Positions 9,273-63,115 of a DNA stretch of 64,000 bases are shown here, piece after piece. Each line of letters opens with the position of its first letter. The first letter of the stretch is position 1. Below the pieces are notes generated by a model. The model saw only the letters and a program-made list of their open reading frames with translations. It made no database searches and was not told the origin of the DNA. The position numbers and the translations under genes were made by a program. This DNA is from Octopus vulgaris (Eukaryota), in NCBI GenBank assembly GCA_951406725.2, contig OX597833.1, forward strand, positions 50,158,001 through 50,222,000. Reading direction: 5' to 3'.

Positions 9273-9476
9273 CCGGAGTAAACACATAAATGTGAAACAA
9301 GGTGGAAAAAAGAGTACTCAAATACCAGTGGTAGAGTAAGATGCTTTATTTTAAGCAGCAGAAATTCAACAAAATCTGTTACTCTGAGTTTCTCGTTGAA
9401 AAACTGTCTGATGAACGGCAACGAGAAACTCAGAGTAACAGATTTTGTTGAATTTTCTGTTGCTTAAAATAAAGTA
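9273..9476. mobile_element. Penelope-like pseudo-LTR fragments in inverted arrangement (HHR family 1)
   Basis: Arms 9342-9398 and 9419-9476 are near-perfect reverse complements; flanked by (TA)n; homologue at 41420-41573; contains a hammerhead fold. Confidence 0.7.
9404..9441 (+). ncRNA. Minimal type I hammerhead ribozyme
   Basis: CTGT-CTGATGA-ACG(GCAA)CGA-GAA-ACTC(A)GAGT-A-ACAG: stem I CTGT/ACAG, intact core, GNRA-capped stem II (A.A at its base in this copy), quasi-palindromic stem III, GUA cleavage triplet. Confidence 0.75.
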
Positions 9477-10573
9477 TATATATATATATATACAGACACA
9501 TGTACATATACACACACACACACACATGTATACATGCGCGTGTATGTCTGATGTGTAAATGCTAACGTATATTCGTGCGCGTCTGTTTCCCGCTGTGCAA
9601 CGAACTGTACGCGTATGAATGCGTTGTGATGTAACGTCCATGTTTCATGTTTGCGTTGCAGAGTGTGAACGAAGAATAAACAGGTGTAACTGAGAGCCAA
9701 GCGCCATATTTACTTGTCTTAAAGTCAACCGTCAAGCTGACACGGTAACAGATCGATTTACAAGCTGTTCTTTCACCTTCTTCCCACACATATCTGCCCG
9801 TTAAAAAAGAAAGTTGTCGACACATCAACGTCGGCGACATGACTATATTGACGCACAGTCTGTTTATCTGATCGCGATTTTGTATAATACCTTCGCTGGC
9901 TCAACGTTCTGGTATCGTCTGCCTCTATACTCATAAGATAAACGTCTGGAGATGACGTCATTCGTCTATTTCCCAGAATGCTCGCGTAATAATCATAGGA
10001 ATAACTATGTCCCAGCCCAGGCAAGTCACGTTGATACGTTTGATGTTGAATTAATCTAGAGTTTGTGTGTCTGTTTGTATATGCGTTTGTAAATACGCGT
10101 ATGTATGCGTATGTTTGTGTGTGTATTTCTTTGTGTCTGGCGGAAGAGAGAACAAATTTGAACGAAAGAGGAATAAGAAGAAAGAAGGAAGTGAAAGACC
10201 GATGGGGCTGGGTGGAGGAAAGCTGGAAGAAGAATGGATGGAACAAAGGAAGGGTTGTTGGGATGTAGGATAAGAGGGAAAGAGATGGAGAAAGAAAATC
10301 AGGGAGATTAACAAATGATTAAAATACTAGTGAATGCATAATCTGATGTTAAGGCAACCAGATGAGTCAGACACTGTGTGTGTGTGTATATATGTGTGTG
10401 TGTGTGTGTGTGTATATGTGTGTGTGTGTGTAGACGTGTGTATGTATATGTTCATGGATGTGTGTAGTGATGTGCGTATGAATGTTTTACGTAATACTTT
10501 GCCTTGATTTGTATAACAGCAACAACAACAACCACAACAATAACAATAATAACAACGTACAATAACAATAATA

Positions 10574-11562
10574 ATCCTTTCTACTACAGGTACACAAGGC
10601 CTGAGGTTTGGTGGAAGGAGATAGTTGATTACATTTGACTCCGGTACTGGTACTTCTTTTATCGACCCCAAAAAGGATGAAAGGTAAAGTCGACATCGGA
10701 GGAATTTGCCCGGTGTGCTAACGATTCTGCCAGCTCGCTGCCCTTAACAACAACAACGATAATAATAATAATAATAATAATATTAATAATAATAATAATA
10801 ATAATAATAATAATAATAATAATAATGATAATGATAATCCTTTGTACCATAGGCACTAAGGCCCGTGGTTTAGGAGGAGGGTAAGTCCATTACATTGACC
10901 CCAGTACACAACTGATACTTATTTTATCGACCCCGAAAGGACGAAAGGTAAAGTTGACTTCGTCGGAATTTGAACTCAGGACGTAAAGAAGGACGAAATG
11001 CCGATAAGCATTTTGCCTGGCGTGCTAACGATTCTGCCAATTCGCCACCTTCACAACAACAACAACAATAATAAACCTTTCTATTGTAGGCACAAGGCCT
11101 GAAATTTTGTGGAGAGGTTAGTCGATTACATCAACCCCACTACGTAACTGGTACTTATATTACCAACCCCGATAAGATGAAAAGCAAAGCTCACCGCGCG
11201 GCATTTGAACGGACGAAATTCTACCAGCCATTTATCTGGTGTGGTAACGTTTCTACCAGCTCGCCGCCTTAATAACAATAGTATCGATCTCAAATGCACA
11301 ATGACACAATGGCATCAATGGCACAATGACATCAATGGCACAATGACAGCAATGGCACAATGACAGCAATGGCATAATGGCACAATGACAGTAATTTCGG
11401 AAGAAGGTTTAAGGTCATTGCGGTATTCAACTCATACTTATTGTATCGACCCAACAAGGATGTAAAACAGAGTCGGCCCCGGTGTAATTTGAACTCAGAA
11501 CGTCGAAATGCCGCTATGCATTTCGCCCAGCGTGCTAACGATTCTACCAGCTCGTCACCTTA
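10574..11562 (-). mobile_element. Cluster of four same-orientation SINE family B monomers (~10574-10744, 10836-11051, 11076-11271, 11380-11562)
   Basis: Each has ggcgagctggcagaatcgttagcac-like head, Nin-like core and tail 2; separated by (AAT/AAC)n. Confidence 0.85.
11296..11392. repeat. Minisatellite, ~17 bp unit aatggcacaatgaca(t/g)c
   Basis: About 5 imperfect units read directly. Confidence 0.85.
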
Positions 11563-60904: not shown

Positions 60905-61357
60905 TCCTTTCTACTATAGGCCCCAGTGTTCAACTGGTCCTTAATTTATCGACCCTGAAAGGATGAAAGGTAAAGTAGACCCCGGCGGAATTTGAACTCA
61001 GAACGTAGCGACGGGCGAAATACAGCCAAGCATTTTGTTCAGCGTGCCAACGACTCTGCTAGCTCGCCGCCCTAGCTTGAATAATAATAATAATAATAAC
61101 AACAACAACAACAACAACAGCAACAACTATCCTTTCTGCACAGATCTGATATTTTGGGGGAGGGGACTTCTCAGTTACACTGTTCGCGTGATTTTCGTCG
61201 GTCTTTACGTTCAGAGTTCAAATTCCGCAGAGGTCGACTTTACCTTTCATCCTTTCCGGGTCGGTAAAATAAGTACCAGTTGAGTACTGGGGGTGATGTA
61301 ATCGACTTATCCACTCCCTCAAAATTGCTGGCCTTGTGCCAAAATTTGAAATCAATA
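60905..61357. mobile_element. Head-to-head SINE family B copies (60905-61072 minus; 61190-61357 plus)
   Basis: Core homology in opposite orientations. Confidence 0.85.
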
Positions 61358-62935
61358 TTACCGTTGCTTATTTTATATTATCTTTGTATGGCCAAATCAA
61401 ATTTTTTCTTTTGTTAATAAGAGGAACTCAATGACCCCGCTCTCTTATTTCTAGTTCTGGTAAACGTTAGTAAAAACTATAACCATGCTTTACAAATAGG
61501 GTCCGCTTAGACAGAAGCATGTTGGGAGTTGCCATCATGCTTACCAAAAATCTGATATAATTAATATTGGTCCCTGCGTTTATATTATTGTTTCCTCATT
61601 GCATGCGTAATTCCTATTTTGGTTAATTAAAATTTCGGAGCTATCACCTTTTTGCATTGACCATATTTCTGTAAATATCTTTAATATCATTATTAGTCAT
61701 CGAGCCCTATGTTTTCCTCTTCTCGGTGTAGCAGTAATTTTAATTAATTAAAAATGAGTTGCTCATTACTTTAAGTACCTTGGCACACACTTAACTATAT
61801 GACATAAAGCAAGACGCCCAATAAAATTCCGGCCGTTCGTCTCTAAATAAATTATTAACGATATAAATAATTTAGTAGGCTGTTATTGCATTTCGAACAA
61901 GGTCTTTTATTTTAAGGGAGAGAAATGAAAATTTGTCATACCCCCACCTTCTCCACTATGATTTCTCCATGACATTAACAATTTAAGTGAAATGAAATGG
62001 TTCCCAAACAATAACAAATTGAGTCGCGGATTCCATTCGCGACATTTATTCGAATTGAGGTATGCCTTAGAAAACGATATATCGATCGAGACAACGAGAG
62101 ACCCCCTACGTGGTCATTCATCTCGCTTCTATAGCAATCCTCCTTTTTCTAAGAAGAGGAAAGATACATTGCATAATATAGTATTGAATATACAAAAAAT
62201 GCAAAAAAAAAAACCAAACAAACAATACAAAACAAAAAAAAAGCATTGATTTGTAACGGTTGGAATGCTTTTGATATCTGCTGAAACAAAGGGCGAGCCG
62301 GGTTCATACAACATCGACCTCGAAAACAACAGCCATAATAGATACCGATTTTGCTCATCATCAAGCCCGGCATCATTACCCTATAACAGTGGAATAATAT
62401 CTGTATATTACATGTGCTGGTGGTGGTGTGTGTGTGTTGGCAGGGTTTGGTGGCGGCGGTGGTAGGTTTTTAACTTCTGATGGGAGTTGTAGGAACGTCG
62501 TGACATACAGCGTACTGTGACATGCGGCGCAGCGCAGCTAATCCCTCTCCAGGTCTGAACATAAAACGATTTCTTTTACAGGGGAAGAGGATAACTAAGA
62601 GGGAGAAGAGAGAGAAAGCGGAATCCATACCAGTATTAGAGCTGGTATTTTATCAACCGCAACAGAATCAAAAGCAAAGCTGCTTTGATAGAATTTCAAC
62701 TCGGAATACGAAGAGCCGCAAAAACACAAACAAGGCATTTTATCCGAGACTCTAACGACTCATACAAATAGCCTCATTAGTACTTCAATACATACATGGG
62801 TTCATCTGTTCCAGAACAAGATGACACAGCAAGTCATCTGGAGCAGAATATTGCTGAAAATGGGTTCTCTTGGAGAGAGAAAGCAAATCCTTAATTTATA
62901 CACTTCAAGTCATTAGGATATCTGAGACTATGAGA

Positions 62936-63115
62936 TCAGTAGACACTACACGCATTTTTTTCTCTCCTTGTTTCTTTCTGTGTTCCTTTCCGTAAAAGAG
63001 CGTAGGCTCGAAACGTTAAAGACTTTTTTAATTCCCGAGCGTTATACAGATACATCTATTTGTTTTCTACACCACCTGTCTTCGTCTTTTGTTTTTTTTC
63101 GTGAATTCTCCCACT
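62936..63115 (+). mobile_element. Second copy of HHR family 2; hammerhead-like fold at 62986-63021
   Basis: CTTT-CCGTAAA-A-GAGC(GTAG)GCTC-GAA-ACGT-T-AAAG; colinear with reverse complement of 49508-49686. Confidence 0.7.

What the first reader, a model, noticed from the sequence alone, without database searches (positions are those of the whole stretch)
9273..63115. Several unrelated short ribozyme-bearing elements colonising (TA)n microsatellites
Seen: at least three unrelated families (9273/41420, ~35390, 49508/62936) plus decayed candidates (7070, 18630, 21060) share one architecture: short stem I, core, short stem II, GAAA, palindromic stem III and an AT-rich downstream region. Most are bordered by TA runs; none has an ORF or clear TSD. 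Inference: a high-copy population of Penelope-derived pseudo-LTRs or non-autonomous retrozyme-like elements that target or seed TA repeats. Dimer-dependent cleavage could let dispersed copies act together within one pre-mRNA or in trans.
Basis: partly seen in the sequence, partly recalled or inferred. Interest (0 to 1): 0.8.

Follow-up and report, generated by a model that had tools for sequence, protein, structure and literature searches.

The report
Penelope ribozyme ends in TA repeats
Three unrelated short repeats in this animal DNA carry minimal hammerhead-ribozyme motifs and mostly sit in TA runs; they are most likely leftover ends of Penelope-like jumping genes, a known kind, although one abundant family has an unusual A-U pair in the ribozyme core and another carries a conserved hairpin that may help start copying.

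Summary
Family A (9273, 41420) has the hammerhead, two 3' ends, tail hairpin and short-arm/long-arm inversion of Hydra-clade Penelope-like elements (PLEs). The same motif occurs in 120 metagenome loci, 14 of them with Hydra RT-endonuclease ORF pieces. Family B (35390) is a repeat: 507-714 contigs in each of three DNA runs, with an A3:U8 core and 2-bp stem II as family consensus. Family C (49508, 62936) is a real ~175-bp pair, but both cores are altered (U at position 6). Of the decayed candidates only 7070 passes a relaxed descriptor. The window holds no PLE ORF, so B and C are PLE-like by motif only. Joint cleavage in one pre-mRNA is not supported: same-family motifs lie on opposite strands, and the families' palindromes differ. 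Most likely the pieces are dead-end cDNAs from internal priming on uncleaved PLE RNA, inserted into TA runs. New but modest: the family-wide A3:U8 core, a covarying bulged hairpin in Hydra tails, and 5' ends piling up 0-13 nt before the ribozyme. Cleavage was not tested.

The parts
9273..9398 (-). Family A copy 1, long arm: starts inside stem II, runs through GAAA/stem III/stem I, the 33-nt linker and the ~70-nt tail to the left (TA)n run
   Evidence: alignment with related loci; arm geometry
9313..9337 (-). Tail hairpin (ACUC-UACC-loop-GGUA-UUU-GAGU, followed by ACU), homologous to the hairpin in Hydra PLE tails
   Evidence: published Hydra consensus ends read by eye
9399..9474 (+). Family A copy 1, short inverted arm: begins 5 nt before stem I, whole hammerhead (stem I 9404-9407/9438-9441, core CUGAUGA 9408-9414, stem III ACUCAGAGU 9428-9436, predicted cut after 9437), ends 33 nt later at the right (TA)n run
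   Evidence: stems I and III match Hydra-2_aMil except the loop base
41421..41505 (-). Family A copy 2, short inverted arm with hammerhead (core CCGACGA at 41489, U4C change, weakened stem II); ends at the left (TA)n run
41506..41573 (+). Family A copy 2, tail-only long arm with the hairpin at 41509-41533; ends at the right (TA)n run
   Evidence: (98.5% to copy 1 tail)
35150..35480 (+). Family B copy, ~330 bp AT-rich repeat with short TA runs at both ends; the family is alignable over 35172-35459 and continues beyond both points in other copies
35386..35417 (+). Family B minimal hammerhead: stem I UGUC/GACA, core AUGAUUA (A3:U8 instead of C3:G8), 2-bp stem II with GAA loop (GAAA in about 37-47% of depth), palindromic stem III ACCGGU, GUC triplet
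   Evidence: loose-end consensus and insertion table
49509..49686 (-). Family C copy 1, ~175 bp, TA runs on both sides; hammerhead-like motif with core CUGUAGA (U at position 6), 4-bp stem II, ACGU palindrome, slipped stem I
62940..63115 (+). Family C copy 2, same two ends as copy 1, no long TA run; core CCGUAAA (changes at positions 4, 6 and 8)
7068..7107 (+). Possible decayed hammerhead (core CCGACAA, ACGU palindrome) inside a ~340-bp stretch that starts at a TA run; unproven
   Evidence: passes only with one core change allowed; no relative in the window

Best explanation
These short repeats are most likely dead-end insertion products of several Penelope-like retroelement families: each would be a cDNA copy of just the ribozyme-bearing pseudo-LTR and tail, pasted by the element's own enzyme into AT-rich or (TA)n DNA. 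For family A (Hydra type) the inferred steps are: (1) the RNA starts about 5-13 nt before the hammerhead, roughly 30 nt behind a TATA-like motif; (2) the RT-endonuclease binds near the tail, probably at the conserved bulged hairpin, nicks TA-rich DNA and primes reverse transcription inside the RNA at one of two sites about 30 and 97 nt behind the ribozyme; (3) priming at the RNA's first tail runs out of template just before the ribozyme, giving ~75-nt and ~140-nt cDNAs; (4) using both target strands joins a short and a long cDNA head to head, the shape of both window copies. The template is uncleaved, so the ribozymes ride along and then decay; solo copies would be inert. Shown: the motifs, the two ends, the inversion, the hairpin, the Hydra ORF link in relatives, and the repeat nature of B. 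Inferred: the start site, the hairpin's role, the order of events, and a PLE origin for B and C.
For: Family A stems I and III match the published Hydra-2_aMil hammerhead, and Hydra elements insert in (TA)n. The motif finds 120 metagenome stretches; 14 of 120 hold Hydra-type ORF pieces, and L044 holds a whole ORF 220 nt behind the hammerhead. Of 46 full-length relatives, 44 have RWK/RWR, 44 DKT and 46 CxCx5-7C. 3' ends are bimodal: 54 of 77 near 30 nt and 21 of 77 at 95 nt or more in one family, 15 and 8 of 24 in another; 13 of 15 inverted pairs join a short to a long arm (not de-duplicated). 5' ends: 44 of 50 and 20 of 20 non-edge copies stop 0-12 nt before stem I. The hairpin lies within 200 nt behind a hammerhead in 40 of 45 hits, with compensatory changes. 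Two-site internal priming, AT-rich nicking and cleavage-independent insertion were shown in vitro for a lizard PLE (PMC11167929). Single minimal hammerheads from truncated PLEs, including opposite-strand pairs, are in print (PMC4209133).
Against: No PLE ORF remnant lies in the window (best tblastn E 0.019 with 120 Hydra proteins; no RT or GIY-YIG family in 128 reading frames near the elements; 133 of 261 such frames were not scanned), and no own genome is held, so a parent element in this organism was not seen. B and C have no link to any ORF; C's two copies share both ends, as a SINE-like element would. The end statistics come from other animals' families. They are biased by the search for whole hammerheads and by contig breaks (30 of 80 copies end at a contig edge, 21 of them with 26 nt or more upstream). 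A strict TATA match at -31 to -39 is present in only 6 of 13 upstream variants. Only 8 of 94 3' ends in related loci touch (TA)>=4, so TA targeting there is loose. Drosophila Penelope uses a TATA-less internal promoter (PMC2377424).
Confidence: 0.78

Rival explanations
1. Families B and C (less likely A) are true non-autonomous elements: short units with their own promoter that are transcribed and re-copied by PLE enzymes in trans, SINE- or retrozyme-style.
For: Both C copies share the same 5' and 3' ends and the same U6 change. B is abundant, with one fixed core in three organisms. Animal retrozymes derive from pLTRs and include monomers (preprint 10.64898/2026.07.22.740005).
Against: No tandem units are seen in the window. 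Fixed ends also follow from start-site-limited cDNA. Other B copies extend further 5' than the window copy (loose ends at 35172 in 26-27 contigs per run).
Confidence: 0.15
2. The 5' pile-up just before the ribozyme in Hydra-type copies comes from RT stalling on the folded hammerhead, or from joining at the AT-rich word before stem I, not from the transcription start.
For: The ends fall in an AT-rich word that could pair with nicked TA DNA; 8 of 81 arms begin inside the hammerhead; the strict TATA match is inconstant (6 of 13 variants).
Against: Stalling should end cDNA at or inside the structure, not 5-12 nt after passing it. In the larger family only 1 of 56 non-edge arms ends between -13 and -89, at -13 itself.
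Confidence: 0.25
3. The motifs are active, host-relevant ribozymes that pair across dispersed copies and cut pre-mRNA.
For: Family A palindromes pair between two copies in a co-fold. PLE hammerheads cleave weakly as dimers (PMC4209133; review PMC6765202). B keeps an intact Watson-Crick 3:8 pair across the family.
Against: Same-family motifs lie on opposite strands here; 3 of 5 copies carry core changes; the 9273 motif is buried in a fold-back. Reported activity is low and protein-assisted, and no reads ended at the cut site in the lizard data.
Confidence: 0.04
4. The motifs are chance matches in AT-rich repeat DNA.
For: With one core change allowed, shuffles give about one hit per window; this may explain 7070, 18630 and 21060.
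Against: Three perfect layouts against 0.06 expected; family A matches a published PLE ribozyme; B's motif is its family's consensus.
Confidence: 0.03

Closest known systems
Hydra-clade Penelope-like elements (Craig et al. 2021, PMC8557442; sections 11 and 15, passages and supplement parts read)
   Same: Family A: same hammerhead stems as Hydra-2_aMil, (TA)n insertion, inverted 5'-truncated copy, tail at one end; related loci carry RWK/DKT/CxCx5C ORFs.
   Different: No ORF in the window. The sequence differs from every Hydra hammerhead in their table, including Hydra-1_oBim. The tail is ~65-70 nt rather than 30-40. The tail hairpin and the 5' pile-up are not mentioned in the parts I read.
Minimal hammerheads (min-HHR) of metazoan PLE pseudo-LTRs (Cervera and de la Pena 2014, PMC4209133; parts 1-2 of 4 read)
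   Same: Short stem I, extra base after A9, palindromic 15-16 segment, many unrelated families per genome, mostly single motifs, opposite-strand pairs.
   Different: Stem II here is 2-4 bp, not 7-8. Family B has A3:U8, whereas the paper reports U3-A8. Family C has U at position 6.
Poseidon PLE of Anolis, PAc (Frangieh et al. 2024, PMC11167929; parts 1-2 of 4 read)
   Same: Two internal RT start sites flanking the tail, AT-rich nicking on both strands, insertion without ribozyme cleavage, a stem-loop at the start region.
   Different: Other clade; there the start sites lie inside the ORF, here in non-coding tail; my hairpin has another sequence and no experiment behind it.
Non-LTR retrozymes of animals (Cervera and de la Pena 2020, PMC7229834, passages; Li et al. 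2026 preprint, part 1 and passages)
   Same: Short, non-coding, type I hammerhead, PLE-derived.
   Different: Retrozymes are head-to-tail tandems that yield circular RNA; these are solo or head-to-head copies.

Membership tests
Hydra-clade PLE (family A) | Type I hammerhead near the 3' end/pLTR | tested here: met
   stems I and III as in Hydra-2_aMil
Hydra-clade PLE (family A) | Insertion into (TA)n | tested here: met
   4 of 4 ends touch (TA)>=5 runs
Hydra-clade PLE (family A) | Inverted 5'-truncated copy and tail at one end only | tested here: met
   both copies; 13 of 15 pairs in relatives
Hydra-clade PLE (family A) | Single ORF with RT (RWK, DKT), CxCX5C linker and C-terminal GIY-YIG | tested here: inconclusive
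   absent from the window; present beside the same ribozyme in 14 of 120 related loci; host genome not held
Hydra-clade PLE (family A) | Absence of the CCHH motif in the endonuclease; placement on an RT tree | not tested
   no own ORF to place
PLE min-HHR (families B, C) | Minimal type I layout with palindromic 15-16 segment | tested here: met
   B; C by reading, not by descriptor
PLE min-HHR (families B, C) | Conserved core CUGANGA or UUGANAA | tested here: not met
   B reads AUGAUUA (A3:U8, pair kept); C reads CUGUAGA and CCGUAAA
PLE min-HHR (families B, C) | Lies in the pLTR of an RT/GIY-YIG element | tested here: inconclusive
   no ORF in the window; no related hits in viral or prokaryotic collections; the single metagenome scan went to family A
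Hammerhead ribozyme (all) | Self-cleavage after the NUH triplet | not testable with these tools
   needs an in vitro assay or cyclic-phosphate end mapping
Non-LTR retrozyme | Head-to-tail tandem units each with a whole hammerhead | tested here: not met
   no tandem copy of A, B or C in the window; not tested genome-wide
Non-LTR retrozyme | Circular and linear monomer RNAs | not testable with these tools
   only contigs were available

The most novel reading that the evidence does not exclude
Family B is a high-copy animal retroelement whose working ribozyme uses a natural A3:U8 core with only a 2-bp stem II, and the Hydra tail hairpin is the clade-wide RT-binding signal that sets the two priming sites, so that the short TA-embedded copies are a PLE equivalent of strong-stop cDNA and record the transcription start, the ribozyme and both priming sites in about 140 bases.
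Probability: 0.3. Interest if true: 0.6.

Novelty: new member of a known kind. Interest (0 to 1): 0.33.

Why it matters
The main reading is ordinary: PLE ribozyme ends in TA repeats are described. Two by-products make open questions testable. How PLE enzymes pick their internal priming sites is unknown; a short covarying hairpin between the two ends of Hydra elements, shared by this window, related loci and published consensus sequences, is a concrete candidate to mutate. What PLE hammerheads do is also open. A family that keeps a swapped core pair (B) beside a pair of copies with a normally harmful core change (C) gives a natural comparison of whether cleavage is under selection.

Tried and rejected
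Rfam: the 150 listed of 459 window matches are microRNA-type models (plus one other family) on simple repeats, all below their gathering scores; 309 lower rows were not shown. Four related loci with clear motifs gave 0 matches, so Rfam is blind to these minimal forms. No own genome is held, so no genome-wide count, clustering or ORF adjacency test was possible. Exact window motifs are absent from the Craig 2021 supplement (0 of 5 motifs): family A is not one of their listed consensus sequences. Viral contigs: 0 hits for A, B and C; 4 hits to a loose A3:U8 pattern lack a stem I and look like chance; no Hydra protein relatives. Prokaryotic genomes: 0 hits for B. Pfam does not recognise the Hydra proteins, so its blank on window frames is weak. 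No RNA holder is listed on record for the family B stretch. One run guessed to be RNA gave a single contig over 35157-35349 that does not reach the ribozyme; this is no evidence on expression. Monomer folds do not give the hammerhead shape, and no window piece folds clearly better than shuffles (z from -1.6 to +0.9). In dimer co-folds only family A paired through stem III. MAFFT misaligned the short hairpins, so covariation was read from the anchored table, not scored formally. Luense et al. 2017 on PLE hammerhead variants is not held and was seen only as a citation. Searches for natural A3:U8 or U6 cores, octopus hammerheads and a tail hairpin found no paper describing them; subscription papers and bioRxiv supplements are not covered.
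Full report
Setting. The window is non-coding, repeat-rich animal-type DNA: 23% is masked as short tandem repeats, the open frames of 110 aa or more are mostly low-complexity and none looks like a gene, and there are 113 (TA)>=5 runs. From recall the dispersed repeats look octopus-like; I did not test this and nothing below depends on it. No whole genome is held.

Observation. Three motifs fit a minimal type I hammerhead with an intact core: 9408(+), 41489(-) and 35390(+). 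Local dinucleotide shuffles give 0.06 such hits and 0 of 200 reach 3. This descriptor accepts any Watson-Crick 3:8 pair, U4C and a free base on each side of stem II; I set the last after seeing the Hydra table, and the first version found 2 hits against 0.23. Family C (49509-49686 on -, 62940-63115 on +) is a real pair, 86% alike over 176 nt with the same two ends. It has a 4-bp stem II and an ACGU palindrome, but both cores have U at position 6 and the second has two more changes, so no descriptor reports it. Of the decayed candidates only 7074 passes, with one core change, where shuffles give about one hit per window; 18630 and 21060 do not. Of the 10 ends of the five main copies, 5 touch a (TA)>=5 run and 7 lie within 10 nt, against 0.9% and 2.6% of background positions; the 62936 copy has none.

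Family A is Hydra-like. Its stems I and III (CUGU/ACAG, ACUC-N-GAGU) are those listed for Hydra-2_aMil in the supplement of Craig et al. 2021 (PMC8557442), a PLE clade in which almost all families insert in (TA)n. Of the 120 loci, 14 hold pieces of an RT-endonuclease ORF, mostly ending 100-190 nt before the ribozyme, and L044 holds a whole ORF starting 220 nt behind it. Of 46 full-length relatives of that ORF, 44 have RWK/RWR, 44 DKT and 46 a CxCx5-7C linker, the Hydra marks. The window itself has no such remnant (best E 0.019; Pfam blank for RT or GIY-YIG on 128 of 261 frames scanned, though Pfam also misses the Hydra proteins).

Anatomy. Both window copies are a short arm (ribozyme plus about 33 nt) joined head to head to a long arm that runs through a ~70-nt tail. 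Relatives show the same two 3' ends: 54 of 77 near 30 nt and 21 of 77 at 95 nt or more in one family, 15 and 8 of 24 in another, with 11 and 6 contig-cut copies set aside; 13 of 15 inverted pairs join a short and a long arm (a few loci are duplicates). This is the published PLE shape of inverted copy plus tail, explained in a lizard PLE by priming at two internal sites on either nicked strand, without need of ribozyme cleavage (PMC11167929). Flank duplications of 8-14 bp occur in 8 of 16 related solo copies (shuffled pairing mean 0.8, maximum 3); inside a TA run they would be invisible, which accounts for 'no TSD'. Only 8 of 94 related 3' ends touch (TA)>=4, so those families accept AT-rich DNA generally; contig breaks at TA runs bias this count down.

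Two features I did not find in print. First, the tail holds a bulged hairpin: RCUC, an upper stem, a 2-3-nt 3' bulge, GAGY, then ACU. An anchored descriptor finds it only in the two family A tails of the window, and 45 times in 295 kb of related loci, 40 of these within 200 nt behind a ribozyme. The upper stem varies with compensation (UACAC/GUGUA, UGCU/AGCA, CUG/CAG, UAGU/ACUA, UACC/GGUA), and the outer G-C is A-U in the window. By eye it also stands in the published Hydra-2_Amil, Hydra-2_Ajap and Hydra-1_Ajap consensus ends, partly in Hydra-1_Crog, and not in the shown end of Hydra-1_Obim. The descriptor was built from these sequences, so its shuffle test is circular. Second, 5' ends pile up 0-12 nt before stem I: 44 of 50 and 20 of 20 copies not at a contig edge. 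With partial ribozymes included, 0 of 81 arms start at the cut site and 8 start inside the motif. The window's whole arms start at -5 and at -13 or closer. A strict TATA match lies at -31 to -39 in 6 of 13 upstream variants; six others are TA-rich there without a strict match, and one is flank DNA. I infer that the RNA starts just before the ribozyme and that the short copies are run-off cDNAs from the first tail. Against this: the loci were chosen by a whole ribozyme, longer copies tend to end at contig edges (21 of 30 edge copies), and Drosophila Penelope has a TATA-less promoter (PMC2377424, passages).

Family B. Laid on 35150-35478 at 80% likeness, three DNA-type runs of three coded organisms gave 714, 507 and 619 contigs; in the first run summed depth over the ribozyme is several hundred times that of single contigs (not a copy number). 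None of the 40 listed substitutions falls in 35386-35417 (34 rows were not shown), and loose-end consensus from 21-26 contigs reads the same AUGAUUA core. So A3:U8 is the family state, not decay of this copy. An extra A in loop II (37-47% of depth) gives a GAAA loop. U3-A8 is known in nature (PMC3088659 section 8; PMC4209133); my searches found no paper on natural A3:U8, but Luense et al. 2017 could not be read, and an unchecked note of this scan reports A3:U8 in a phage. Two-base-pair stems II are known. No ORF link was found for B or C.

The pre-mRNA idea. The whole A motifs are on opposite strands, as are the C motifs; B is single. The palindromes differ between families. The 9273 copy folds into one long hairpin on either strand (-95.4 and -85.6 kcal/mol). 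Three of five copies have core changes. PLE minimal hammerheads cleave poorly even as dimers. Retrozymes are tandem arrays, which these are not.

Verdict. The features are real and of a known kind: ends of PLEs, Hydra-type for A, likely PLE-derived for B and C. The A3:U8 family and the tail hairpin are small, testable additions. Papers seen: PMC8557442 passages, sections 11 and 15, supplement part 2 and passages; PMC4209133 and PMC11167929 parts 1-2 of 4; PMC3088659 section 8 and passages; the 2026 preprint part 1 and passages; PMC6765202, PMC7229834, PMC2377424, PMC6155905 and PMC13282606 passages only. Hammerhead numbering and the reading of a GAAA loop as stable rest on my own knowledge.

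Noticed in passing
L044:140-172: A second, different minimal hammerhead-like motif (core CUGAGGA, ACAUGU palindrome) lies about 160 nt before the Hydra one; window 18629-18660 has a similar GAAACAUG end but broken stems.
   Followed up: no
L044:394-502: Two tail-type hairpins separated by a (TA)n run precede the start codon at 528; the published Hydra-1_Ajap consensus also begins with two such hairpins.
   Followed up: partly
window 18836-19210, 22681-23411, 44867-45730, 51556-51990 and many others: A very abundant ~185-190-bp dispersed and tandem SINE-like repeat, and a second family around an internal microsatellite (e.g. 1405-1773, 48164-48544, 60010-60391).
   Followed up: no
window 18126-18163 and 51942-51973: GCUC...GAGCACU bracket as in the Hydra hairpin, but without the upper stem; at least the second lies in the SINE-like repeat.
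   Followed up: no
window 56923-57006: Perfect palindrome (CT)n(AT)n(AG)n, source of spurious microRNA matches in Rfam.
   Followed up: no
window 34211-34618 and 36619-37287: Local tandem duplications of about 205 bp (two units) and 225 bp (three units); neither gave a hammerhead descriptor hit.
   Followed up: partly
L009:14-580: A Hydra ribozyme-plus-tail piece sits 150 nt behind a zf-RVT-bearing LINE fragment.
   Followed up: no
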